From positions 1 through 56,112 of IMG/VR virus record IMGVR_UViG_3300020603_000019: a stretch of 56,112 nt of DNA; one strand, given 5' to 3'. Below the pieces are notes generated by a model. It was not told the DNA's origin. It did not search any database and saw only the letters and a list, made by a program, of their open reading frames with translations. Of this stretch, positions 2,491-21,711 are shown piece after piece. A program made the position numbers and the translations under genes. The stretch's first letter is position 1, and each line of letters starts with the position of its first letter. This DNA comes from a virus (taxonomy: Duplodnaviria; Caudoviricetes).

Positions 2491-3621
2491 TCAAGCAGAC
2501 AAATAAACTGTTTCGCCAAATGGCGCTACAAGGTTTTTGCTGACGGATACCCATAGTGTTGGAGCGCATGCTGCTTCTTCAGCGGACGCAAAGTCTTCTG
2601 CGCCTGTTTCTAAATCAGTAAGATAAACAATAGCTTGTACGTCCGGGTGGTTGTCGCGCAAATATTCAAACGCTGGCGTAAACGCTGTACCGCCACGCCC
2701 TTTGAACGAAGGAAGCTGTGACGCTTTTAAGCGTTCACCCGTATCAAGAACTTTTACGTCTTGGACTTGGGCGTCTGCTTGGATCCAGACAATTGATGAC
2801 GGCTGGACCTGAGCCATGACTGCATCTACTTCAGAGATGAACTGAGCGCCCTGCTCGTCTGTAATGGATCCACTAGAATCGTTGACGACTGCAACTTTGC
2901 CACAGGTCTCTTGGTACATAGACGGAAGATATTCATCTTCTGAAATCCATGCTCGGTGAGGCTTGCGCCACGAATAGTCGTCTCGGTTAAGTTCCGTGAA
3001 AAACGGCCAGAGGACCGTGCGCCAGTCAACCTTGGGTTGGAGTATTTCCGAGATAAAGAGCTCGATGTTACCAGGGAGTTTGCCACGTGCTTTGGCTACA
3101 GCAGCAGCTTCGCCTACGGCGATCTGCCAGTTGGACTCTTGTTCAGCAGCAGAGCCTGCTTCAAGGCTGCCGCTTGTTGCGTCAAGCACGATACCCCAGG
3201 CGCAGGGCTTGGGGCGTTTGCTGGGCTCTTTGTTGATAAGGTTGTAAATTTCTTCCGCGCCCATACCTTTGTAGGCAGGGTCTAAAAGAGCGCCTTTTGG
3301 CAGGATAAATCCTGATTCGATCAGGTGGTCGTTGATTGCGTAATCGCAAGCAATATTCCACAGCTGGTGATCACGTTCTTGTCTACGTGTCTGATGGTTA
3401 AATACACAATGCAGAACCTCGTGAGCCAGGAGCCCACGAAGCTGCATTGGATCTAGCTTAAGAATATAAGCAGGATCGTAGTACAGATGAATACCATCTG
3501 TAGCTGCGGTCTTAATATCTTCACGTTGCACAGGGCGAAGACGAATGGCCAACGTTCCGAAGAACGGCTGGTCCATTAACAGCTGCGAACGCGCTTTGAC
3601 TAGCGCGCCTTCGGCAGACAT
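2491..3621 (-). CDS. DUF2201-type metallopeptidase plus VWA domain protein
   Basis: TAATDG, HEVLH (HExxH), WNIACDYAIN, C-terminal MIDAS DSSGS, GRGGTAF, YLTD. Confidence 0.9.
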   Translation of the reverse strand: MSAEGALVKARSQLLMDQPFFGTLAIRLRPVQREDIKTAATDGIHLYYDPAYILKLDPMQLRGLLAHEVLHCVFNHQTRRQERDHQLWNIACDYAINDHLIESGFILPKGALLDPAYKGMGAEEIYNLINKEPSKRPKPCAWGIVLDATSGSLEAGSAAEQESNWQIAVGEAAAVAKARGKLPGNIELFISEILQPKVDWRTVLWPFFTELNRDDYSWRKPHRAWISEDEYLPSMYQETCGKVAVVNDSSGSITDEQGAQFISEVDAVMAQVQPSSIVWIQADAQVQDVKVLDTGERLKASQLPSFKGRGGTAFTPAFEYLRDNHPDVQAIVYLTDLETGAEDFASAEEAACAPTLWVSVSKNLVAPFGETVYLSA

Positions 3622-3622
3622 A

Positions 3623-4300
3623 TCAACCTCCTACGAGTTTTGCTGTGAGTACTACTTCGTTGACAAATGCGTCGTCGAACTGAACTTCTTCCTTGATTTG
3701 TTGTGCGCGCGCAACACGGGTGATGCGCTCGTACATGCGAGTCTTGGCTTCGTGAGGAACGAAAGACTCACCAGCAGGCCAGGCAAGTAGCAGCTGCTTT
3801 ACTGTCGAACATTGCTTGAGCAAGCTTCGAATCTTGGTGGAGTAGTCTGCTCTTTCGATGCTGTGCTGATGCTTGTCGAGTGCTGCTTGTTTGCAGCCAT
3901 TTAACAGTTGAGACTGAACTTGTGGCCCAAGTTCGTCAAAGTTGAACTCGGGCATGCTCCAGCTGTTTGTCCTATAAATAGGAAAAGCTGGAACAAACTC
4001 GAATACGAGTTGTTCGGTGGTATTTGAGTGGAATCCTGTTTTGCTGCTGAGACACAAACGGGCGCAGTCTTCCCTATTGATTCCTTTTGTTGGTCCGCCA
4101 AACGAATTAAAAGAGTACCTGTGTTGTCGATCAAATTGATCTTTTAACGCTTTGTACGGTTCCGAAGATAATACAGCATCTCTAACAAGATTAGTAAGCT
4201 CTGTAGTTGGCTTAGGTTCGGGCCGCGCCGAATTAAAAGCTTCCATAGCTTTGTTATAAATTGTGTCACGTAAGTCATTGGTCATTCTTACTGAAGCCAT
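3623..4300 (-). CDS. Nmad5-like (nucleotide-modification-associated domain 5) protein
   Basis: N-terminal RMTNDLRDTI and C-terminal LLKQCSTVKQLLLAWP resemble Nmad5-family phage proteins (recalled pattern). Confidence 0.55.
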   Translation of the reverse strand: MASVRMTNDLRDTIYNKAMEAFNSARPEPKPTTELTNLVRDAVLSSEPYKALKDQFDRQHRYSFNSFGGPTKGINREDCARLCLSSKTGFHSNTTEQLVFEFVPAFPIYRTNSWSMPEFNFDELGPQVQSQLLNGCKQAALDKHQHSIERADYSTKIRSLLKQCSTVKQLLLAWPAGESFVPHEAKTRMYERITRVARAQQIKEEVQFDDAFVNEVVLTAKLVGG

Positions 4301-4311
4301 AGGGTTCTCCG

Positions 4312-5310
4312 TTAGATAACAACGTCTACGTTAGCAGACGTCCATGATTTAAACGCCGGGTGATTCAGGAGCTGACGCTCTTTTGCGACGCAGTCGCGAA
4401 TCAATACAACTTGGAACTCACGAGGCATGCGTCGGTTGTAACGCATGATGGCGTCGAAGTTACCTTGATCGACCCTCGATGCCAGTGCGCCAGCAATGGC
4501 GTAAAGCGTCGAAGGATCTCCGGGTACGCGTGTGGTTGATGGGTTCTGCATGAGATCGTCGATGTCCGGCAGATCCTTGCGGATTGCACGATGTGCGAGG
4601 TACTCGCCTGCAGGGCCGTCGCCGATCAAAGACGAAACGCCGTAGAACATGTCTTCCATGAACGGCAGTTTGCGGTTGACCATCTCCCAGGTACGGGGCG
4701 ACGGAAACGCGTAGTCCGCGTTATCCATGCTGTGCAGGAGACCAGGGCGGTAACGCAAGAACGACACGATGCTGTCGTCAATGTTGCGTTGTAAAGCCCA
4801 GGCTACCCAGTCGTCGATGTTCGGCTCGAGAGTGTAGTGCGCAAACCGGTTCTTGACCGGGGTTGGCATTTCGTGGATCGCGGCTCGATCCTGGGCTCGG
4901 TTGCCAGCTGCTACGATGATGGTGTTTTCCGGAAGGACGTACGTGCCAATCTTGCGATCAAGAGTTAATTGCAGCAGTGCGTTCTGTGTGGCTTTTGGAG
5001 CATTGGGCAACTCGTCAATAAGCAGCACTACCGTGCCGGTGTAGTTGGTTTCCGGATAATCCTCGGGCACACCGTATCTTGTGCGGTATGAACCGTCGGC
5101 TTGCTCAACTACCTTGAGGCCGCCGCGAACGTCGACAGGGTCAAACAGGTTGGCACGAAGCTCAAAGACTTTGGCTAAAAGATCTTCAGCAAACTGATAA
5201 ACAATTTGCGATTTACCCAGACCTGGAGGACCCCAGATCATGGTTGGCACGCGAGCAAGCGCGTTGGCACGGAGTTCTGACTTGAGTTGAGAGGGACGAA
5301 TAGTACGCAT
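4312..5310 (-). CDS. MoxR-like AAA+ ATPase
   Basis: Walker A GPPGLGKS, Walker B LLIDE, sensor AAGN, NRF arginine finger, PSPRTWE. Paired with a VWA protein. Confidence 0.92.
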   Translation of the reverse strand: MRTIRPSQLKSELRANALARVPTMIWGPPGLGKSQIVYQFAEDLLAKVFELRANLFDPVDVRGGLKVVEQADGSYRTRYGVPEDYPETNYTGTVVLLIDELPNAPKATQNALLQLTLDRKIGTYVLPENTIIVAAGNRAQDRAAIHEMPTPVKNRFAHYTLEPNIDDWVAWALQRNIDDSIVSFLRYRPGLLHSMDNADYAFPSPRTWEMVNRKLPFMEDMFYGVSSLIGDGPAGEYLAHRAIRKDLPDIDDLMQNPSTTRVPGDPSTLYAIAGALASRVDQGNFDAIMRYNRRMPREFQVVLIRDCVAKERQLLNHPAFKSWTSANVDVVI

Positions 5311-12484: not shown

Positions 12485-12967
12485 ATGGAGAACCCCATAA
12501 CGTGCGTTAGGTGCAAGAAGTCGTTGCCACCGGACCAGTTCAATAGGCACTCGCGCAACAGGGGCGAGATCAAACGCAGCTACTGTCGCGCCTGTGCCAA
12601 GGCCCTCGACCGTAAAACACGGTCCTCTGGCTATGAAACCTATCTCCGGTACTTAATTCGTAAGAACAAGTCCTCGAGCACGGAACGTGGTATCTCTGAT
12701 TACACGATCACGGCGGAGTCCTTGAAGGAACTGTGGGAGAAGCAGGGGGGTAAGTGCGCAATATCCGGCGTCATCCTTACCCATCACCTGGACGGAACGG
12801 GGCGTAAGGAGTTCAACGCCAGCATCGACCGGATAGATAGCCAGCTAGGCTACGTCCCTGGTAACGTTCAGCTCGTTGCCTATCGTGCGAATGTGTTAAA
12901 AAACGACCTTGGGCTCGACATGCTTTATTGGTGGGTTAAGACAATTTACCAATACTCTTGTGATTGA
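12485..12967 (+). CDS. HNH-type endonuclease with N-terminal zinc finger
   Basis: CVRC...CRAC; QGGKCAISG...SIDRIDSQLGYVPGNVQLV...N. Confidence 0.8.
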   Translation: MENPITCVRCKKSLPPDQFNRHSRNRGEIKRSYCRACAKALDRKTRSSGYETYLRYLIRKNKSSSTERGISDYTITAESLKELWEKQGGKCAISGVILTHHLDGTGRKEFNASIDRIDSQLGYVPGNVQLVAYRANVLKNDLGLDMLYWWVKTIYQYSCD

Positions 12968-15810: not shown

Positions 15811-17955
15811 ATGGCCAAAATCAAACCACAGTCTATTGAAGATCAACAGCTCGCCCACACGCAGTGGCAGCGCTACGTGCGCGCCCGCGATAACGGGCAT
15901 CTGCAGTACGTTGAGATGGCGAAGAAATGTGACGCGTTCTATCGCGGCGACCAGTGGGACAAGTCTGCTCTTGCAGTTCTGGAGGCCGAGGGCCGTCCAG
16001 CACTGACCATCAATACTATTCTTCCGACCGTGAACACGGTCCTCGGAGAACAGTCCACGCGCCGTGCTGATATTCAGTTCAAGCCACGCCGTGGCGGTGA
16101 CCAGGACGTTGCAAGCGTCCTAACCAAGCTGTACATGCAGATTGCCGACAACAACAAGCTCGACTGGGTCGAGCAGCAGGTGTTCAGCGACGGCCTCATC
16201 ATGGACGGCCGTGGTTACTTTGATGTCCGCATGGACTTTAGTGACCACGTAGAAGGTGAGGTACGCATCACGGCCAAGGACCCGATTGATATCCTGGTTG
16301 ACCCGGATGCCAAGGAGTATGATCCGAAGACATGGAACGAGGTCTTTGAAACTAAATGGATGACCCTCGACGAGATCGAGGAACTGTACGGCGAAGACAA
16401 AGCCGAAGCGCTACGGTTCGTCGCCGAGAATGGCAACGGATTCGGACGCGACTCAATCGAATACGAAGAGACTCGCTACGGCAAGACTGACTCGACGCAG
16501 GACTATCTTAGAGCGTCGGTTCCTGGCAGTGAAGAATACCGAAACGTAAAGGCGCTACGTGTCATCGAGCGGCAGTACCGTAAGATGGGGCGTGCAGATT
16601 TCTTTGTTGATCCCAACACGGGGGATCAGCGCGAGGCCCCCGAAGAGTGGGGCGAGCAGAAGACGAAAAAGTTCGCCAAGCAGTACGGCCTTGGGATCAT
16701 CAGTAAGATTAAGCGCAAAGTGCGCTGGACAGTGACGTGCGACAAGGTCGTGCTCCATGACGACTGGTCGCCGTACGAAGACTTCACTCTCGTCCCTTAC
16801 TTCGCGTATTTCCGTCGCGGCCGTCCGTTCGGTATGGTGCGTAATCTGTTGTCTCCGCAGGAGCAGCTGAACAAGATCGCGAGCCAGGAGCTGCACATCG
16901 TCAACACCACCGCCAACAGTGGCTGGATGGTTGAGAGTGGCTCACTCGTCGGCATGACGACGGACGACCTAGAGGAGCACGGCGCAGAGACGGGCCTGAT
17001 ACTCGAGTACAACCGTGGTTCGCAACCGCCGACCAAGATTCAGCCTAATCAGATTCCGACCGGGCTCGATCGCATCAGTCAGAAGGCGGCGCTCAACATC
17101 AAGACTATCAGCGGCGTGAATGACTCGATGCTCGGGTCGGACAGCGCAGAGGTCTCCGGCATCGCCATTCAGGCGAAGCAGAATCGCGGCGTCATCATGA
17201 TTCAGGTGCCGCTCGACAATCTGCGTAAGACTCGACAGTACCTGGCGGAGAAGGTGCTGAATCTCGTGCAGCGGTTCTACACCGAGCAGCGCGTTATTCA
17301 GATCACCAACGAAGATGATCCAATGAAGCCGCGCGAGCCTATGGTCGTCAATGAAATGACGCCGGAAGGTCGCGTGATTAATGATTTGACTTTAGGCGAG
17401 TACGACGTAATCGTCGGCACTGCGCCTGCGCGCGACTCGTTCGATGAGATGCAGTTCGCCGAGGCGATTAATCTTCGTCAGGTTGGCGTAGCCATACCGG
17501 ACGACGCTATTATTGAGTACAGCCACCTCGCCCGTAAGGGAGAACTTGCGAAGCGTATCCGCATGATGACGGGTGTCGAGCAGACTCCGGAGCAGATGGA
17601 AGCCAACGCTATGCAGGCGGAGCTGGCGATGCAGCAGGTTCAGCTCACGCTGGTCAAACTGCAGGCAGAGGTTCAGAAGTTGCAGTCGGAAGCGGCGGTC
17701 AACATTGCCAAGGTACAGGATGTCGCCGACGTTCAGCCCCAGCTCAAGATGCAGGAGCTCCAGGCGCAGATTGCAATCAAGGAGCGCGAGCTCGAGCTGC
17801 GGCGTGAGCTTTCTTCGCTTACTAATGAAACGCGGCGTAATCAGCATCAGACTGCATCAGCGACTCGTATTGCTGCGACAGTCATGCAGACCGCTGCCAA
17901 GACGCAGAATCAGGGCCCGCCGCCCCCTGTTAATATCCCAAACATGCGGCAATAA
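15811..17955 (+). CDS. Portal protein
   Basis: FYRGDQW, GRPALTIN, VRNLLSPQEQLNK, C-terminal coiled coil (P22-like portal); position after terminase. Confidence 0.93.
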   Translation: MAKIKPQSIEDQQLAHTQWQRYVRARDNGHLQYVEMAKKCDAFYRGDQWDKSALAVLEAEGRPALTINTILPTVNTVLGEQSTRRADIQFKPRRGGDQDVASVLTKLYMQIADNNKLDWVEQQVFSDGLIMDGRGYFDVRMDFSDHVEGEVRITAKDPIDILVDPDAKEYDPKTWNEVFETKWMTLDEIEELYGEDKAEALRFVAENGNGFGRDSIEYEETRYGKTDSTQDYLRASVPGSEEYRNVKALRVIERQYRKMGRADFFVDPNTGDQREAPEEWGEQKTKKFAKQYGLGIISKIKRKVRWTVTCDKVVLHDDWSPYEDFTLVPYFAYFRRGRPFGMVRNLLSPQEQLNKIASQELHIVNTTANSGWMVESGSLVGMTTDDLEEHGAETGLILEYNRGSQPPTKIQPNQIPTGLDRISQKAALNIKTISGVNDSMLGSDSAEVSGIAIQAKQNRGVIMIQVPLDNLRKTRQYLAEKVLNLVQRFYTEQRVIQITNEDDPMKPREPMVVNEMTPEGRVINDLTLGEYDVIVGTAPARDSFDEMQFAEAINLRQVGVAIPDDAIIEYSHLARKGELAKRIRMMTGVEQTPEQMEANAMQAELAMQQVQLTLVKLQAEVQKLQSEAAVNIAKVQDVADVQPQLKMQELQAQIAIKERELELRRELSSLTNETRRNQHQTASATRIAATVMQTAAKTQNQGPPPPVNIPNMRQ

Positions 17956-17977: not shown

Positions 17978-18997
17978 ATGGCTGACGACAAGAAGGACGT
18001 GACGTTTGATGTGATGCCCGGTGCCGATCCCGTTGAGGCGGCCCCGGAGCAGAAGTTCGACTTTAATTTTGGGCTCGGCGAAGAAATTAAAGCCGCAGTT
18101 GCGGAACCGGCCACGGAACCGGCCATCGAGGAGGCAGAAGCGCCAGTAGTTTCGGAGGCAAAGGCGGAAGTTGAACCGGTGATCGAACCGACGCCGCTTG
18201 AAACGCCGGAAGTTGCTCCGGTTGTTCCGGAAGCGGAGGCGAAAAAAGCCCCAGAATCGGAGCCGAAGCAGAAGATGGTGCCGAAATCGCGCCTAGACGA
18301 GGTGTTGGCCAAGCAGAAAGCGCTGCAGAAGCAGCTCGACGACCTCATGGCGGCTAAAACCGCTGCCGAAACGGCTCCTGAGAGCTACGATTTCGCGGTA
18401 AAAGAGGTGGAGTACCAGAATATGGTGCTCGACGGTCAGCATGAGAAGGCTGCGGCCCTTCGTGCCGAGATCCGCAAGGCGGAACGCGCACAGCTCGAGT
18501 TCGAGTTGACGCAGAAAGTGGAGCAGAAGGTCACTCAGAGCCAGCAGATATCTGCTTTGCAGCAGGCCGCAGCTGATCTGGAGGCCAATTTCCCTGTTTT
18601 TGACCGCGCTAGCCCTGATTACAACGAAAAGTACACGCAGGAAGTCATCGATCTGCGCGACGCCTTTATTGTTAAAGGCGAAAACCCGGTCGCGGCCCTG
18701 TCTAAGGCAGCGAAATTTGTCCTGCGGGAGTATGATCTAATCGATATGAGCGGAGACACCACTCCTTCCCTGGCTGTCGCCCCGACTCCGAAGGCACCTA
18801 GCGTCGATGAGGTGGCCAAAAAGCGCGCAGAGGTGGCCCGCAAACTAAAAGCTGCTGAATCTCAACCCCCCGAAATGCCGGGAGAGAGCTCTGCAGCACG
18901 CGGCGAGAAAGCGATCGATCTTTCTACGTTGACAGAAGACGAGTTTAACGCTCTTCCTGCCGCTACCCTTAAGCGTTTGCGCGGAGATATTCTCTAA
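17978..18997 (+). CDS. Capsid scaffolding protein (putative)
   Basis: Acidic Pro/Glu-rich N-terminus, VPKSRLDEV, coiled coils, C-terminal LTEDEFNALP...RLRGD. Confidence 0.75.
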   Translation: MADDKKDVTFDVMPGADPVEAAPEQKFDFNFGLGEEIKAAVAEPATEPAIEEAEAPVVSEAKAEVEPVIEPTPLETPEVAPVVPEAEAKKAPESEPKQKMVPKSRLDEVLAKQKALQKQLDDLMAAKTAAETAPESYDFAVKEVEYQNMVLDGQHEKAAALRAEIRKAERAQLEFELTQKVEQKVTQSQQISALQQAAADLEANFPVFDRASPDYNEKYTQEVIDLRDAFIVKGENPVAALSKAAKFVLREYDLIDMSGDTTPSLAVAPTPKAPSVDEVAKKRAEVARKLKAAESQPPEMPGESSAARGEKAIDLSTLTEDEFNALPAATLKRLRGDIL

Positions 18998-19281
18998 TGG
19001 CCGGTCGCGATTCACGTTTAGCCCGAGCCGGTGTCTCTGGCTACAACAAACCTAAGCGTACACCAAGCCATCCGACCAAAAGCCACGTAGTTGTGGCCAA
19101 GTCGGGGGATCAGGTGAAAACTATCCGGTTTGGCCAACAGGGCGTCAGGGGCTCCCCCCGTAAAAAAGGGGAGTCCGACTCATACCGTAACCGCCGCGAG
19201 TCCTTCAAAGCCCGCCACGCTAATAATATTTCCAAGGGCAAGATGTCTGCGGCGTATTGGGCAAACAAGGTAAAGTGGTAA
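18997..19281 (+). CDS. Small basic protein
   Basis: K/R-rich; KTIRFGQQG...RRESFKARH...SAAYWANKVKW. Confidence 0.8.
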   Translation: MAGRDSRLARAGVSGYNKPKRTPSHPTKSHVVVAKSGDQVKTIRFGQQGVRGSPRKKGESDSYRNRRESFKARHANNISKGKMSAAYWANKVKW

Positions 19282-19460
19282 TGGCTAAAACTAAGTCAAA
19301 GGTCAATGCCGCTGGTAATTACACCAAGCCGACTATGCGTAAACAGATTTTTGAGCGCATTAAAGCTGGTAGTAAAGGTGGTAAACCAGGCCAATGGAGC
19401 GCCCGCAAAGCACAGATGCTAGCGGTCGAGTACAAAAAGTCAGGCGGAGGCTATAGGTAA
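19281..19460 (+). CDS. Small basic protein, DUF5872-like N-terminal half
   Basis: YTKPTMR...KGGKPGQWSARKAQMLAVEYKKSGGGY; TAATG-coupled start at 19281. Confidence 0.8.
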   Translation: MAKTKSKVNAAGNYTKPTMRKQIFERIKAGSKGGKPGQWSARKAQMLAVEYKKSGGGYR

Positions 19461-19711
19461 TGGGGTTAGCCAAGTCACAGAAGTCCCTCAAGAAGTGGAC
19501 TAAAGAGGACTGGGGCACTCGTTCTGGTAAGAACAGCACCCAGGGCTCGAAGGCGACTGGCGAACGGTACCTGCCGAAGAAAGCTCGGCAGGCGCTGTCC
19601 CCTCAGGAGTATGCTGCTACTACCCGTAACAAACGTCGTTCGCTTGCCAAGGGCGAGCAGTTCTCGAAGCAACCCAAGCGTATCGCCAAGAAGACCGCGC
19701 GGTACCGTTAA
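19460..19711 (+). CDS. Small basic protein, DUF5872-like C-terminal half
   Basis: QKSLKKWTKEDW...GERYLPKKA...G.QF; TAATG-coupled. Confidence 0.8.
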   Translation: MGLAKSQKSLKKWTKEDWGTRSGKNSTQGSKATGERYLPKKARQALSPQEYAATTRNKRRSLAKGEQFSKQPKRIAKKTARYR

Positions 19712-19728
19712 CCACAGGAGATAAGCGT

Positions 19729-19857
19729 ATGAAGATGAAGAAGAAAGGCGGAAAGGGCCCTATGCATCGGATGCCGGATGGCACCATGATGCCTGGAAAA
19801 AGCCATAAGGCTAAAAAGTCGGCTAAGAAGCCAACCAAGCCTAGATACCCTTATTGA
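19729..19857 (+). CDS. Very basic 42-aa protein (not in ORF track)
   Basis: MKMKKKGGKGPMHRMPDGTMMPGKSHKAKKSAKKPTKPRYPY; AGGAG SD. Confidence 0.6.
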   Translation: MKMKKKGGKGPMHRMPDGTMMPGKSHKAKKSAKKPTKPRYPY

Positions 19858-19874
19858 TAATATTCGCATTAACT

Positions 19875-19911
19875 AGTTGCAAATTTGTATTAATGTTGCT
19901 ATTTTGCAACT
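19875..19911 (+). promoter_or_regulatory. Putative capsid promoter within an inverted repeat
   Basis: TTGCAA-17-TATTTT with TG extension; AGTTGCAAA/TTTGCAACT arms; variant ATTAA-N5-CTATT in the spacer. Confidence 0.5.
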
Positions 19912-19915
19912 GAAC

Positions 19916-20101
19916 TCGTCTGCTGGAACGATATTCAGCCGTGTCGGACACGTAAAAAACGTCGGACCCGCCTGCGCAGGCGTAAAACCCGCCGAGGTCG
20001 CGCCTCGTTAACCCGCGCTAAGTCGTGACCCCACGATACGGGGTAACGGTTTAGCCGCACCAAAAGTCGGCTGTAGCCTAGTAATGCGTGTGCATTACTA
20101 G
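19916..20101 (+). ncRNA. Structured capsid mRNA leader: tandem pseudoknots plus hairpin
   Basis: Five clear and one degenerate H-type pseudoknot, then a perfect 10-bp hairpin CTAGTAATGC/GCATTACTAG before the SD. Confidence 0.65.
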
Positions 20102-20131
20102 ATTTGAAACGCAATTTAAAGGAGAAGCCAA

Positions 20132-21274
20132 ATGGCTCTTACTAATTTTGCGGCGCTGACTAGTGATCAACTCACGGCATGGAGCCGTGATTTCTGGCGC
20201 GTCGCTCGCAATATGTCGTTTGTGAACCAGTTCGCTGGTTCAGGTTCGAACGCGATGATTACGCGTGTCACTGAGCTGACCAAGTCAGACAAGGGCACGA
20301 AGGCCGTCATCACTCTGCTTGCCGATATGACCGGCGACGGCGTGACTGGCGATAGCACCCTCGAAGGTAATGAAGAGGCGCTCCGCGCTTACGACATCAC
20401 CATCGAGCTCGACCAGCTCCGCTTCGCGAACCGCATTGCCGGTCGCCTCGCGGATCAGAAGAGCGTGGTGAACTTCCGTGAGCAGAGCCGTGACGCCCTC
20501 GCGTATGCGCTGGCTGATCGTTGCGACCAGCTGGCGTTCTTGACGCTATCGGGTGTGGCCTACACGCACAAGACCAACGGCGCTCTGCGCACGGTCTTGG
20601 CGTCTGGTCAGAACCTGTCGAACCTCGAGTTCGCTTCTGACGTGACGGCTCCTACCGCAGCGCGGCATCGCCGTGTTTCCGGTGACACTATCGCTGCTGG
20701 TTCGACTACGTCTGTTACTGCGACGGACAAGTTGAAGTACCGTCATATCGTTGACATCAAGGCCTATGCCAAGGATCAATACATCCGTGGCGTTCGCTCT
20801 GCTGGCAACGATGAGGTCTTCCACATGTTCGTGACCCCGCAGCAGATGGCCTCCCTCAAGCTCGATTCGGACTTCCTCGCCAACGTGCGTAACGCTGGCA
20901 TCCGTGGTCCGAGCAACCAGCTGTTTGCTGGTTCGAGCTCGCTGATGGTCGACGGCGTCATGGTCCACGAGTTCCGCCATGTGTTCAACACATCTGGCGC
21001 GACGACTGGTACCTCGGCGAACGCTGGCGCAGCTGGCTACAAGTGGGGTGCAAACGCAAACGTGACGGGCGCTCGTGCGCTCTTCTGCGGTGCGCAGGCT
21101 CTCGCTATGGCTGACATCGGTCTTCCGGATATCGTTGAAGATAACTTCGACTACCAGAACCAAGCTGGTATCTCGATTGGTAAGATCTTCGGTCTCCGTA
21201 AGCCGAAGTACAACAGCGACGTGACGGCAGACACGCAGGACTTCGGCGTGGTTGCTCTCGACACGGCGCAGTAA
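20132..21274 (+). CDS. Major capsid protein (N4-gp56/DUF4043-like)
   Basis: GDGVTGDSTLEGNEEAL, DQLRFA, QKSVVNFREQSRDAL, RALFCGAQAL, DFGVVALDT; strong codon bias; AAGGAG SD. Confidence 0.92.
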   Translation: MALTNFAALTSDQLTAWSRDFWRVARNMSFVNQFAGSGSNAMITRVTELTKSDKGTKAVITLLADMTGDGVTGDSTLEGNEEALRAYDITIELDQLRFANRIAGRLADQKSVVNFREQSRDALAYALADRCDQLAFLTLSGVAYTHKTNGALRTVLASGQNLSNLEFASDVTAPTAARHRRVSGDTIAAGSTTSVTATDKLKYRHIVDIKAYAKDQYIRGVRSAGNDEVFHMFVTPQQMASLKLDSDFLANVRNAGIRGPSNQLFAGSSSLMVDGVMVHEFRHVFNTSGATTGTSANAGAAGYKWGANANVTGARALFCGAQALAMADIGLPDIVEDNFDYQNQAGISIGKIFGLRKPKYNSDVTADTQDFGVVALDTAQ

Positions 21275-21282
21275 GCCGCTTA

Positions 21283-21310
21283 GGGGGCCCTCTCTTCGGA
21301 GGGGGCCCCC
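21283..21310 (+). terminator. GC-rich C(UUCG)G hairpin after the capsid gene
   Basis: GGGGGCCCTCTC-TTCG-GAGGGGGCCCCC. No U-tract, so may stabilise RNA rather than terminate. Confidence 0.55.
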
Positions 21311-21333
21311 ATCTCTCTACTCCAGGAGCAATC

Positions 21334-21711
21334 GTGAAGGTTGTCTCGGATAAAGAAATTCGCGTTGCCACACTCAGTGGCGCAGTGGTTTTGTTTTTCC
21401 CAGGGGAAGAGTGCGAAGTAGCCGACGAGATCGGCATTCTTGCGCTGCAAATGGGAGCCCGACAGGTAGGGTTTGAAGCGCCGAAAGCGCCTCCTCCTGC
21501 GGTCAAAGATTCCCCCCAGATCGAAGAATTCGAGGACGTAAAGAACCTCGATGACGTAGTCGCTGGTATTGAGAAGCTCTGTGAACAGGGCGACCCAGAA
21601 GACTTCAAAGCGGATGGAACTCCCAAAGCTTCGGCAGTAAACCGCGCTGTCGGGCGCAACGTTAGCATTGAAGATCGGGAAGCAGCTTGGGATATATTCA
21701 TCAAATCGTGA
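21334..21711 (+). CDS. Hypothetical virion-associated protein
   Basis: AGGAG SD; DFKADGTPK...ERE.AW motif. Confidence 0.75.
   Translation: MKVVSDKEIRVATLSGAVVLFFPGEECEVADEIGILALQMGARQVGFEAPKAPPPAVKDSPQIEEFEDVKNLDDVVAGIEKLCEQGDPEDFKADGTPKASAVNRAVGRNVSIEDREAAWDIFIKS

What the first reader, a model, noticed from the sequence alone, without database searches (positions are those of the whole stretch)
19916..20101. Array of tandem H-type pseudoknots in the capsid leader
Seen back to back: PK1 UCGU/ACGA + GCUGGA/UUCAGC (19916-39); PK2 degenerate, CGUG/CACG then UAAAAAAC; PK3 CGCCU/AGGCG + GCG/CGC; PK4 CGAGG/CCUCG + CGCG/CGCG; PK5 UCGU/ACGA + ACCCC/GGGGU; PK6 GGU/ACC + UAGCCG/CGGCUG. Linkers are A-rich, and a perfect 10-bp hairpin precedes the SD. 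Units share topology but little sequence, and start just after a predicted promoter. Inference: a repeated structural module acting as translational enhancer, mRNA shield, autoregulatory site (cf. T4 gene 32 pseudoknot) or assembly RNA.
Basis: partly seen in the sequence, partly recalled or inferred. Interest (0 to 1): 0.8.

Follow-up and report, generated by a model that had tools for sequence, protein, structure and literature searches.

The report
Pseudoknot-array leader of phage capsid mRNA
The untranslated start of this aquatic phage's major capsid messenger RNA is a conserved chain of six small RNA pseudoknots plus a hairpin, an RNA family not in the databases searched that most likely helps the phage make very large amounts of capsid protein.

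Summary
Window 19916-20073 holds six back-to-back compact H-type pseudoknots (PK1-PK6). A perfect 10-bp hairpin follows at 20078-20101, then the Shine-Dalgarno site and the capsid start at 20132.

- **Not chance:** my pseudoknot finder gives 6 non-overlapping candidates here. The most in 300 shuffles was 4, and no other of 1332 window segments reaches 6.
- **Conserved with covariation:** the same leader lies upstream of the capsid gene in all 86 relatives with distinct leaders that were searched. Of 51 proposed pairs, 33 show changes on both sides, against 20.9±1.8 in shuffles. Second stems covary in PK1, PK3, PK5 and more weakly in PK4 and PK6. PK2's 2-bp second stem never varies, so it is untestable.
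- **Not a known family:** no Rfam family matches.
- **Context:** a conserved sigma70-like promoter ends 6-13 nt before PK1 in 87 of 87 leaders. A GC hairpin or terminator follows the capsid stop. Metatranscriptome contigs join leader to coding sequence.

My best reading, which is inferred, is a cis-acting leader that shields the 5' end and boosts output of a single-gene capsid message. Protein-operator, ribosome-recruiting, antitermination and decoy roles remain open.

The parts
19877..19905 (+). sigma70-like promoter: -35 TTGCAA (19877-82), 17-nt spacer, -10 TATTTT (19900-05)
   Evidence: Read. The same -35/16-18 nt/-10 layout is found in 87 of 87 leaders; the -10 is TAATAT in 52 of 87 and ends 6-13 nt before PK1. 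The strict scan did not list it (8 of 12 matches, threshold 9). All four metatranscriptome runs show no contig depth over 19836-19902.
19916..19939 (+). PK1: S1 UCGU/ACGA (19916-19/19928-31), S2 GCUGGA/UUCAGC (19922-27/19934-39), third loop UA
   Evidence: S2 has 6 of 6 pairs changed on both sides. S1 has 2 of 4 pairs compensated in divergent leaders: UA to CG in 7 rows and GC to UA in 3 rows.
19940..19961 (+). PK2: S1 CGUG/CACG (19940-43/19949-52), A-rich third loop UAAAAAA, candidate 2-bp S2 CG/CG (19945-46/19960-61)
   Evidence: S1 has 2 of 4 pairs compensated, e.g. UA 58 / GC 22 / CG 5. S2 never varies (83 of 86 rows the same), so it is untested. In divergent leaders a 3-bp S2 can be drawn by eye.
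19969..19992 (+). PK3: S1 CGCCU/AGGCG (19969-73/19978-82), S2 GCG/CGC (19974-76/19990-92), third loop UAAAACC
   Evidence: S1 has 3 of 5 pairs and S2 has 3 of 3 pairs changed on both sides (GC to AU in 16 rows; CG to AU 7; AU to GC 5). S2 was not part of the covariance model.
19993..20017 (+). PK4: S1 CGAGG/CCUCG (19993-97/20003-07), S2 CGCG/CGCG (19999-20002/20014-17), third loop UUAACC
   Evidence: S1 has 4 of 5 pairs compensated. S2 has 2 of 4 (CG to UA in 8 rows). The fourth S2 pair is unpaired in 53 of 86 rows, so S2 is 3 bp in most relatives.
20023..20044 (+). PK5: S1 UCGU/ACGA (20023-26/20033-36), S2 ACCCC/GGGGU (20028-32/20040-44), third loop UAC
   Evidence: The four S2 core pairs are all compensated (e.g. 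CG 38 / UA 29 / UG 8 / AU 6). The outer A-U pair holds in only 25.6% of rows. S1 has 1 of 4 pairs compensated, in one row (L067).
20048..20073 (+). PK6: S1 GGU/ACC (20048-50/20059-61), S2 UAGCCG/CGGCUG (20052-57/20068-73), third loop AAAAGU
   Evidence: The third S1 pair is AU 46 / GU 14 / UA 8 / GC 2. S2 is mostly invariant in close relatives. In L135 and L155 the pair 20057-20068 changes from G-C to A-U. The unit is replaced by a different pseudoknot in L115/L116/L144 and is absent in L067, L170, L181, L183 and L190.
20078..20101 (+). HP7: perfect 10-bp hairpin with a 4-nt loop
   Evidence: I1. By eye, most relatives keep a hairpin at this place with a different sequence (alignments); this was not counted. 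A U-run follows it only in part of the clade.
20109..20134 (+). translation start region: semi-conserved ACGCA box (20109-13), Shine-Dalgarno AGGAG (20120-24), ATG (20132-34)
   Evidence: The last ~34 nt are unpaired in the centroid fold.
20132..21274 (+). major capsid protein gene (380 aa)
   Evidence: Pfam PF13252 Phage_capsid_3, E 1.4e-46. Nearest named phages are 52.8% identical (KPP25, phiR18).
21283..21310 (+). 12-bp G+C-rich hairpin with a UUCG loop, 9 nt after the capsid stop: a 3' stabiliser or terminator
   Evidence: z -4.41 for 21270-21400. Of 72 distinct relatives, 63 fold at -15 kcal/mol or lower in the 70 nt after the stop, and many have a U-run after the hairpin.

Best explanation
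**What it is.** This is the 5' untranslated leader of the major capsid mRNA of an uncultured aquatic podophage clade. Host RNA polymerase starts at a sigma70-type promoter at about 19911-19914. Within a few nucleotides the RNA folds into six consecutive compact H-type pseudoknots.
- PK1 and PK5 have a short first stem, a 5-6-bp second stem and a 2-3-nt third loop.
- PK2, PK3 and PK4 have a 4-5-bp G+C-rich first stem, a 2-4-bp second stem and a 6-8-nt A-rich third loop.
- PK6 is intermediate.
- A hairpin follows, then an open ribosome binding site.

**How it most likely works (inferred, not shown).** The array acts in cis as an expression leader.
- Because it begins almost at the 5' end and is a chain of stable knots, it would deny 5'-end-dependent decay enzymes a single-stranded entry and a free path. 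These are an RppH/RNase E-type or an RNase J-type system, depending on the unknown host.
- It would leave no unstructured RNA for Rho.
- HP7 would insulate the Shine-Dalgarno site so that it stays open.
- Together with the hairpin or terminator after the stop codon, this makes a long-lived, heavily translated, largely single-gene capsid message.

**Shown:** the structure, its conservation, its position and co-transcription with the gene. **Inferred:** stabilisation and higher output.
For: **Structure.**
- 93.7% of 4306 cells pair, against 30-43% when the partners are slid by 1-3 columns.
- 33 of 51 pairs change on both sides, against 20.9±1.8 in shuffles (0 of 500 reach it).
- The MAFFT-only alignment of 41 leaders gives 23 of 51 pairs, against 12.5±1.6.
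- G·U cells number 144 against 33 A·C cells, which points to an RNA read from the + strand.

**Selection.** Leader identity to relatives is 0.71-0.86. Capsid third codon positions are 0.53-0.75, and the 160 nt upstream of the promoter are 0.54-0.63.

**Position.**
- There is exactly one copy per locus, always just upstream of the capsid gene (87 of 87 sources, 457,637 nt searched).
- There is one copy in the whole 56,112-nt virus record.
- A promoter is present in 87 of 87 leaders, and its -10 ends 6-13 nt before PK1.

**Transcription.** In four metatranscriptome runs, contigs of relatives bridge leader and coding sequence, for example 19969-20247 plus a 46-nt 5' overhang. Contig depth is 30-137 over 19970-20570, 0-8 over 19300-19835 and 0 over the promoter.

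**3' end.** A hairpin or terminator follows the stop codon in 63 of 72 distinct relatives.

**Ribosome site.** It is unpaired in the centroid fold.
Against: - No measurement of half-life or translation exists.
- A plain stabiliser would not need such strict conservation of loop and linker letters: 61 invariant columns among 40 leaders. That fits a specific partner at least as well.
- Contig depth is a poor measure of expression, and contigs cannot show RNA ends (tool caveats).
- The host, and so its decay enzymes, is unknown.
- The nearest named phages have no such array: no model match at E up to 1 and pseudoknot counts within shuffles. The array is therefore not a general need of this capsid type.
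- Sequences in the alignments are related, so cell counts overstate the number of independent events. Alignment A4 was also fitted to six of the twelve helices.
Confidence: 0.45

Rival explanations
1. Protein-binding operator array. The pseudoknots are binding sites for a phage protein, or a host RNA-binding protein, that tunes capsid translation. The phage candidates are the capsid or scaffold protein, or one of the small very basic proteins encoded just upstream. This is the logic of T4 gene 32 or ribosomal-protein leaders.
For: Unpaired letters are strongly conserved: 61 invariant columns in 40 leaders, including ACGAUA twice and GCGCUA. The modules are repeated. Four small basic ORFs lie directly upstream at 18997-19857; three of them belong to phage families of unknown function.
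Against: No RNA-binding domain was found in the neighbours. The gene just upstream of the promoter differs among relatives while the leader stays the same. A-rich third loops and G+C-rich first stems can be conserved for tertiary structure alone.
Confidence: 0.2
2. Ribosome-recruiting translational enhancer. The array docks the 30S subunit, for example through protein S1, and raises initiation at the nearby start. This would be a prokaryotic counterpart of tandem-pseudoknot elements that bind the translation machinery in RNA viruses.
For: It lies immediately 5' of a strong Shine-Dalgarno site on what must be the most abundantly made protein. The ribosome is a conserved partner, which would explain the sequence conservation. 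From the search listings: S1 binds and unfolds a pseudoknot (PMC7038950, listing and start of abstract only), and the simplest IRESs are tandem pseudoknots (bioRxiv 10.1101/2024.04.17.590008, listing only).
Against: A canonical Shine-Dalgarno site with 7-nt spacing is already present. The A-rich stretches are probably engaged within the pseudoknots and so are not free single strands. There is no test.
Confidence: 0.15
3. Processive antitermination RNA, put-like. The nascent leader binds the transcribing polymerase and makes it read through terminators of the late operon.
For: It is a conserved structured RNA placed right after a promoter inside a 35-kb same-strand structural gene block. A terminator-like hairpin lies after the capsid gene.
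Against: The terminator directly after the gene makes more sense if it works, giving excess capsid message. Known put RNAs (recalled) are two stem-loops, not pseudoknots. There is no test.
Confidence: 0.05
4. Trans-acting RNA. The leader is released and acts as a decoy or sponge, for example against a host RNA-guided or RNA-cleaving defence, as pseudo-ToxI repeats do.
For: It is a tandem array of pseudoknots with A-rich linkers. In the freshwater subclade, HP7 is followed by a short U-run that could end some transcripts.
Against: The units are not sequence repeats. No toxin gene is adjacent. RNA contigs run through into the coding sequence, and contig depth over the leader is not higher than over the gene. 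The U-run is not conserved across the clade.
Confidence: 0.05
5. Ligand-sensing or conformational switch. Some units (PK2-PK4 resemble small A-rich-tail aptamers) bind a metabolite, or the 3' half toggles between the PK4-PK6 fold and a nested alternative helix.
For: RNAalifold proposes a mutually exclusive helix, 20015-21 with 20051-58 plus 20024-26 with 20046-48. It can form in about 95% of cells.
Against: That helix is built from invariant letters. Only 3 pairs and 4 cells change on both sides, and 85 of 500 shuffles reach this. It breaks in exactly the rows where PK4 S2 and PK6 S2 are compensated. No riboswitch family of Rfam matches even at E up to 10. The ribosome site is not sequestered in either fold.
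Confidence: 0.04

Closest known systems
Tandem pseudoknot domains in untranslated regions of RNA viruses (tobamovirus upstream pseudoknot domain; the 2-4 pseudoknots of the foot-and-mouth disease virus 5' UTR). Recalled; FMDV 'series of pseudoknots' seen only in a listing
   Same: Several H-type pseudoknots stand head to tail in an untranslated region next to the signals for expression. The number of units varies between relatives.
   Different: Those lie in RNA genomes of eukaryotic viruses. This one is in an mRNA leader of a dsDNA phage, transcribed by host polymerase and followed by a Shine-Dalgarno site. There is no sequence relationship, and Rfam models give no match.
T4 gene 32 mRNA leader pseudoknot (recalled; also described in passages of PMC10690425)
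   Same: A pseudoknot at the 5' end of a phage mRNA leader, upstream of the ribosome binding site.
   Different: That case has a single pseudoknot followed by an unstructured region on which the encoded single-strand-binding protein spreads. Here there are six knots plus a hairpin, the region is structured, and the product is a capsid protein.
Compact frameshift-type H-type pseudoknots and small A-rich-tail aptamers (luteovirus type, preQ1-I type; recalled)
   Same: PK2-PK4 have a 4-5-bp G+C-rich first stem, a very short first loop, a 2-4-bp second stem and a 6-8-nt A-rich third loop. That geometry allows minor-groove triples.
   Different: They are not within a coding region and not next to a slippery site. 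No riboswitch model matches. Tertiary contacts are not shown.
tmRNA pseudoknot string
   Same: A chain of pseudoknots in one bacterial-type RNA, with units that can be replaced or lost in evolution.
   Different: ARAGORN finds no tmRNA or tRNA in the window. There is no tRNA-like domain and no tag frame.
5' stabiliser stem-loops of bacterial and phage mRNAs (e.g. the ompA leader; recalled)
   Same: Structure within a few nucleotides of the 5' end of a highly expressed message, paired with a 3' hairpin.
   Different: Those are single hairpins with little sequence constraint. This is a 160-nt array conserved as strongly as the coding sequence.
Catalogue of >10,000 candidate structured RNAs in viruses and phages (PMC10690425; passages read)
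   Same: A comparative search of viral metagenome contigs that reports candidates upstream of phage genes, five of them upstream of a major capsid protein family.
   Different: The capsid family named there (PHA00201) is a different one.

Membership tests
H-type (classical) RNA pseudoknot | Loop of a first hairpin pairs with a downstream segment (order S1-5', S2-5', S1-3', S2-3') | tested here: met
   All six units have this order in the window. Both stems are supported by changes on both sides in PK1, PK3, PK4, PK5 and PK6 (PK5 S1 by one row only). PK2's S2 is an invariant 2-bp stem.
H-type (classical) RNA pseudoknot | Pairing acts at the RNA level on the transcribed strand | tested here: met
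   G·U 144 cells against A·C 33. RNA contigs cover the leader.
H-type (classical) RNA pseudoknot | Fold actually adopted in solution or in the cell | not testable with these tools
   Needs SHAPE/DMS probing or a solved structure.
Any Rfam 15 family | Score at or above the family's gathering threshold | tested here: not met
   0 matches at gathering in the whole window. At E up to 10, nothing lies within 19903-20079. The best nearby hit is freshwater-2 at 18.2 bits against a threshold of 49.9, over HP7 and the ribosome site.
T4 gene 32-type autoregulatory leader | Single 5' pseudoknot followed by an unstructured tract reaching the ribosome site; the gene encodes a single-strand-binding protein | tested here: not met
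   Six pseudoknots plus a hairpin fill the leader. The gene is a PF13252 capsid protein.
Type III antitoxin RNA (ToxI-like) | Tandem near-identical direct repeats next to an endoribonuclease toxin gene | tested here: not met
   No tandem repeat and only two short direct-repeat families. The flanking genes are small basic ORFs and the capsid gene.
preQ1-I or other small pseudoknot riboswitches | Match to the aptamer model; the expression platform overlaps the ribosome site or a terminator | tested here: not met
   No such family at E up to 10. The ribosome site lies 47 nt beyond PK6 and is unpaired.
Intrinsic terminator or attenuator (HP7) | G+C-rich hairpin followed by a U-run, conserved | tested here: inconclusive
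   Not listed by the terminator scan. A U-run follows HP7 in part of the freshwater subclade only, judged by eye. RNA contigs read through.
put-type antitermination RNA | Nascent RNA binds polymerase and suppresses downstream terminators | not testable with these tools
   Only its position fits: after a promoter, with a terminator-like hairpin downstream.

The most novel reading that the evidence does not exclude
The array is not mere armour but a modular RNA platform with a specific partner. Each pseudoknot would dock a domain of the translation machinery (such as the multi-domain protein S1) or copies of a phage protein. The leader would then act as a phage counterpart of the tandem-pseudoknot ribosome-recruiting or regulatory elements of eukaryotic RNA viruses. 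Module number (4-6) would be tuned by lineage, and there may be a conformational switch in the PK4-PK6 half.
Probability: 0.25. Interest if true: 0.85.

Novelty: new variant of a known kind. Interest (0 to 1): 0.7.

Why it matters
- **Architecture.** Structured 5' leaders are common, but I do not recall a chain of six covariation-supported H-type pseudoknots in a bacterial-type mRNA, and four full-text searches did not find one. No Rfam family matches either.
- **Abundance.** The element sits on what must be the most heavily expressed gene of a very abundant aquatic phage clade.
- **Uses.**
  - It offers a natural test bed for how pseudoknots affect mRNA decay and ribosome loading in bacteria.
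  - It is a compact, modular part for expression engineering.
  - It gives a sequence marker for this phage clade.
- **If it has a partner.** A specific protein or ribosomal partner would extend tandem-pseudoknot regulation from eukaryotic RNA viruses to DNA phages.

Tried and rejected
**Analyses that led nowhere or argued against an idea**
- Nested folding of the leader alone is not informative (z -1.02).
- The strict promoter and terminator scan found no promoter here and no terminator in the leader.
- Rfam: nothing at gathering in the whole window and only sub-threshold noise at E up to 10.
- ARAGORN: no tRNA or tmRNA.
- Second copies: none in the window and none in 86 relatives' loci.
- Named relatives KPP25, phiA008 and AP1 (capsid 44-53% identical): no match to model R1 at E up to 1, and pseudoknot-candidate counts of 2-3, within shuffles. 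The array is therefore confined to the uncultured clade.
- Cellular genomes: the pattern scan gave 109 stretches. By my arithmetic about 280 are expected by chance (596 Gb, 2 strands, 4 gap lengths, 17 fixed bases). Model R1 confirmed 3 of the 109, all on MAG records; L257 is a 7.5-kb contig, L273 is on a 16-kb contig, and the contig length of L279 was not seen. No host can be named from this.
- Alternative nested helix from RNAalifold: compatible but without covariation, so neither accepted nor excluded.
- Long-range pairing of PK1's UCGU with PK5's ACGA: rejected by eye, because leaders whose PK1 S1 changed (UCGC/GCGA, CUUG/CAAG) keep PK5's arms unchanged.
- A seventh pseudoknot between the HP7 loop and the ACGCA box: possible in the window but not kept in relatives, judged by eye.
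- Metatranscriptomes: all runs were Logan contigs, so no RNA ends, strand or levels could be read. The absence of contigs over the promoter and the low depth upstream are weak hints only.

**Literature**
- Four full-text searches listed nothing on a pseudoknot array in a phage capsid leader. Only the listed titles and abstract starts were seen (20, 10, 15 and 30 papers).
- PMC10690425 was read as passages only. Its supplementary tables, which may hold this motif, are closed.

- No protein structure or complex job was run, because none bears on an RNA element.
Full report
**Setting.** The window is a whole virus record of 56,112 nt, estimated 95% complete. It carries a P22-like portal (15811-17955), a scaffold-sized ORF, four small basic ORFs, a PF13252 major capsid gene (20132-21274) and an SU10-type adaptor. 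The nearest named phages have capsids only 44-53% identical: Pseudomonas phages KPP25 and phiR18, Aeromonas phiA008 and Acidovorax AP1. IMG/VR, in contrast, holds a very large uncultured clade at 80-100% identity. The finding lies in the 274-nt gap between the last small ORF (ends 19857) and the capsid start.

**The observation.** A simple finder of compact H-type pseudoknots counts 6 non-overlapping candidates in 19910-20078. Its rules were: first stem of at least 3 bp, second stem of at least 3 bp, at least 8 bp in all, and loops of 0-3, 0-2 and 2-9 nt. Three hundred dinucleotide shuffles reach at most 4 (3 of 300; mode 2). Of 1332 overlapping 169-nt segments of the window on both strands, this is the only one with 6. 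Nested folding does not reveal any of this (z -1.02), as expected for pseudoknots. The units are not sequence repeats. PK1 and PK5 do share the frame UCGU-(1-2 nt)-S2-ACGA-UA(C)-S2', and its pattern occurs only at these two places in the window.

**Conservation and covariation.**
- *MAFFT-only alignment.* Leaders from 74 loci gave 41 distinct sequences, aligned without reference to any structure (A1). With first stems written as round brackets and second stems as square brackets, 94.3% of 2066 cells form standard pairs, against 30-44% when the 3' partners are slid by 1-3 columns. Twenty-three of 51 pairs show changes on both sides, against 12.5±1.6 in 500 column shuffles (0 reach it).
- *Covariance model.* Model R1 has 162 positions and only six nested helices: S2 of PK1, PK5 and PK6, and S1 of PK2, PK3 and PK4. 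In the window plus 86 loci with distinct leaders it found exactly one match per source, always on the capsid strand just upstream of the gene (87 of 87; 457,637 nt).
- *Model-based alignment (86 distinct rows).* 93.7% of 4306 cells pair, and 33 of 51 pairs change on both sides, against 20.9±1.8 in shuffles (0 of 500).

Helices that were not in the model, and so were not favoured by the alignment:

| Helix | Pairs changed on both sides | Detail |
|---|---|---|
| PK1 S1 | 2 of 4 | UA to CG in 7 rows; GC to UA in 3 rows |
| PK2 S2 | 0 of 2 | invariant CG/CG |
| PK3 S2 | 3 of 3 | |
| PK4 S2 | 2 of 4 | fourth pair unpaired in 53 of 86 rows |
| PK5 S1 | 1 of 4 | one row (L067) |
| PK6 S1 | 1 of 3 | AU 46, GU 14, UA 8, GC 2 |

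Helices that were in the model:

| Helix | Pairs changed on both sides | Detail |
|---|---|---|
| PK1 S2 | 6 of 6 | |
| PK2 S1 | 2 of 4 | |
| PK3 S1 | 3 of 5 | |
| PK4 S1 | 4 of 5 | |
| PK5 S2 core | 4 of 4 | |
| PK6 S2 | 4 of 6 | part of this comes from rows where the unit is replaced |

Divergent leaders read by eye show PK1 S1 as UCGC/GCGA, ACGC/GCGA and CUUG/CAAG while PK5 keeps its own arms. The first stems are therefore local, not a PK1-PK5 long-range helix. G·U cells outnumber A·C cells 144 to 33, which fits an RNA read from the + strand and not a DNA element or the other strand.

Caveats: the sequences are related, so cells are not independent events. A4 is fitted to half of the helices. 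PK2's second stem rests only on the invariance of two CG dinucleotides and on 3-bp versions seen by eye in divergent leaders.

**Modularity.** The array is not fixed. In L115, L116 and L144, PK6 is replaced by a different pseudoknot with an A-rich third loop. L067 has another hairpin in its place. L170, L181, L183 and L190 lack PK6 and HP7. HP7 is by eye a hairpin of changing sequence in most relatives.

**Selection.** For 14 relatives, identity of the 158-nt core to the window is 0.71-0.86. That equals the whole capsid coding sequence (0.71-0.87) and is well above third codon positions (0.53-0.75) and the 160 nt upstream of the promoter (0.54-0.63).

**Context.**
- *Promoter.* A sigma70-type promoter precedes the array in 87 of 87 leaders. 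It has a TTG-type -35, a spacer of 17 nt in 76 of 87, and a -10 that is TAATAT in 52 of 87. The -10 ends 6-13 nt before the first base of PK1. With the usual start 6-9 nt after the -10 (established knowledge), the transcript has roughly 0-5 unpaired nucleotides before the first knot. In the window the promoter is TTGCAA (19877-82), 17 nt, TATTTT (19900-05).
- *3' end.* Nine nucleotides after the capsid stop lies a 12-bp G+C-rich hairpin with a UUCG loop (21283-21310). In 63 of 72 distinct relatives the 70 nt after the stop fold at -15 kcal/mol or lower, mostly as the same type of hairpin and often with a U-run, that is, a terminator.
- *Cassette.* The capsid gene therefore looks like a self-contained unit: promoter, pseudoknot leader, gene, hairpin or terminator.
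- *RNA contigs.* Four metatranscriptome runs, held as Logan contigs of relatives 85-99% alike, carry contigs that bridge leader and coding sequence. Summed contig depth is 30-137 over 19970-20570, 0-8 over the upstream genes and 0 over the promoter. Adding the overhanging letters, the contigs' 5' ends extrapolate to about 19922-19934. Contigs cannot show true ends or levels, so this is only a consistent hint. The leader is not deeper than the gene.

**What it is not.**
- No Rfam family matches. The only nearby sub-threshold hit (freshwater-2, 18.2 bits against 49.9) covers HP7 and the ribosome site, not the array.
- There is no tRNA or tmRNA and no tandem repeat.
- The named relatives lack it.
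- Of 109 pattern matches in 185,579 species' genomes, the model confirms 3, all on MAG records. The element belongs to the phage clade, and no host can be read from this.

**Mechanism.** The shown facts are a conserved, covarying chain of compact pseudoknots that begins almost at the 5' end of the capsid message, leaves the ribosome site open, and is matched by a 3' hairpin. The most economical reading is a cis-acting expression leader. It would shield the message against 5'-end-dependent decay and against Rho, and would insulate the ribosome site. This helps deliver the large excess of capsid protein over the portal and other upstream products that a virion needs. I give this 0.45.

The strict conservation of loop and linker letters (61 invariant columns in 40 leaders) is the main reason to keep specific-partner readings alive:
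- a protein operator (0.2);
- a ribosome or S1 docking enhancer (0.15);
- antitermination (0.05);
- a released decoy RNA (0.05);
- a ligand or conformational switch (0.04).

For the switch, RNAalifold offers an alternative helix between 20015-21 and 20051-58. It is compatible in about 95% of cells but is built from invariant letters. It breaks in the rows where the pseudoknot stems compensate.

**Comparison with what is known.** The topology matches classical H-type pseudoknots, and PK2-PK4 have the proportions of compact A-rich-loop pseudoknots. That resemblance is recalled, and tertiary contacts are not shown. Arrays of pseudoknots are known from untranslated regions of eukaryotic RNA viruses and from tmRNA, and a single pseudoknot from the T4 gene 32 leader. 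None is a relative by any test run here, and the gene 32 layout is not met.

Four full-text searches returned nothing on such an array in a phage capsid leader (listings only). A catalogue of candidate structured RNAs in viral contigs mentions five candidates upstream of a different capsid family (PMC10690425, passages). Its closed supplements might contain this motif.

**Verdict.** It is a new RNA family with an unusual architecture, filed as a new variant of the known kind 'structured cis-acting mRNA leader'. Its function is inferred only. Interest 0.7.

Noticed in passing
window 21283-21310: A 12-bp G+C-rich hairpin with a UUCG tetraloop sits 9 nt after the capsid stop. The same type of hairpin, often with a U-run, follows the gene in most relatives (63 of 72 distinct downstream regions fold at -15 kcal/mol or lower).
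   Followed up: yes
window 19875-19883 and 19903-19911: A perfect 9-nt inverted repeat brackets the capsid promoter, from the -35 to just past the -10. By eye, relatives also carry short inverted repeats around the -35 and spacer, but at other positions. It could be an operator for a regulator.
   Followed up: partly
window 18997-19857: Four small, very basic ORFs (94, 67, 83 and 42 aa) lie between the scaffold-sized gene and the capsid promoter. Three match PHROG families of unknown function, and the 94-aa one weakly matches part of a 'minor head protein and DNA pilot' family. The gene directly upstream of the promoter differs among relatives.
   Followed up: partly
window 20015-20021 with 20051-20058, and 20024-26 with 20046-48: Conserved letters of the PK4-PK6 half can also form a nested helix that excludes PK4 S2, PK5 S1 and PK6. 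It is invariant, so covariation neither supports nor excludes it.
   Followed up: yes
window 20109-20113: An ACGCA box (or AUCGCA) 6-12 nt upstream of the Shine-Dalgarno site is kept in many relatives although the surrounding letters vary.
   Followed up: no
window 20082-20134: A sub-threshold Rfam hit to the freshwater-2 motif (18.2 bits, threshold 49.9) covers HP7, the Shine-Dalgarno site and the start codon. It may only reflect a shared ribosome-site context.
   Followed up: no
window 2491-5310, minus strand: Three adjacent genes form a cluster: a DUF2201 metallopeptidase-like plus VWA-like protein, a protein with an Nmad5 (nucleotide modification associated) domain, and a MoxR-like AAA ATPase.
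   Followed up: no
window 12485-12967: An endonuclease VII/HNH-like gene lies just upstream of the terminase genes. It also gives weak PHROG matches to families annotated as Srd anti-sigma factor and sigma70 decoy.
   Followed up: no
L115, L116, L144 (about 150-200 nt upstream of the capsid start): In these relatives the sixth unit is replaced by an unrelated pseudoknot with a 5-bp first stem, a 3-bp second stem and an A-rich third loop. This suggests that units are exchanged as modules.
   Followed up: partly
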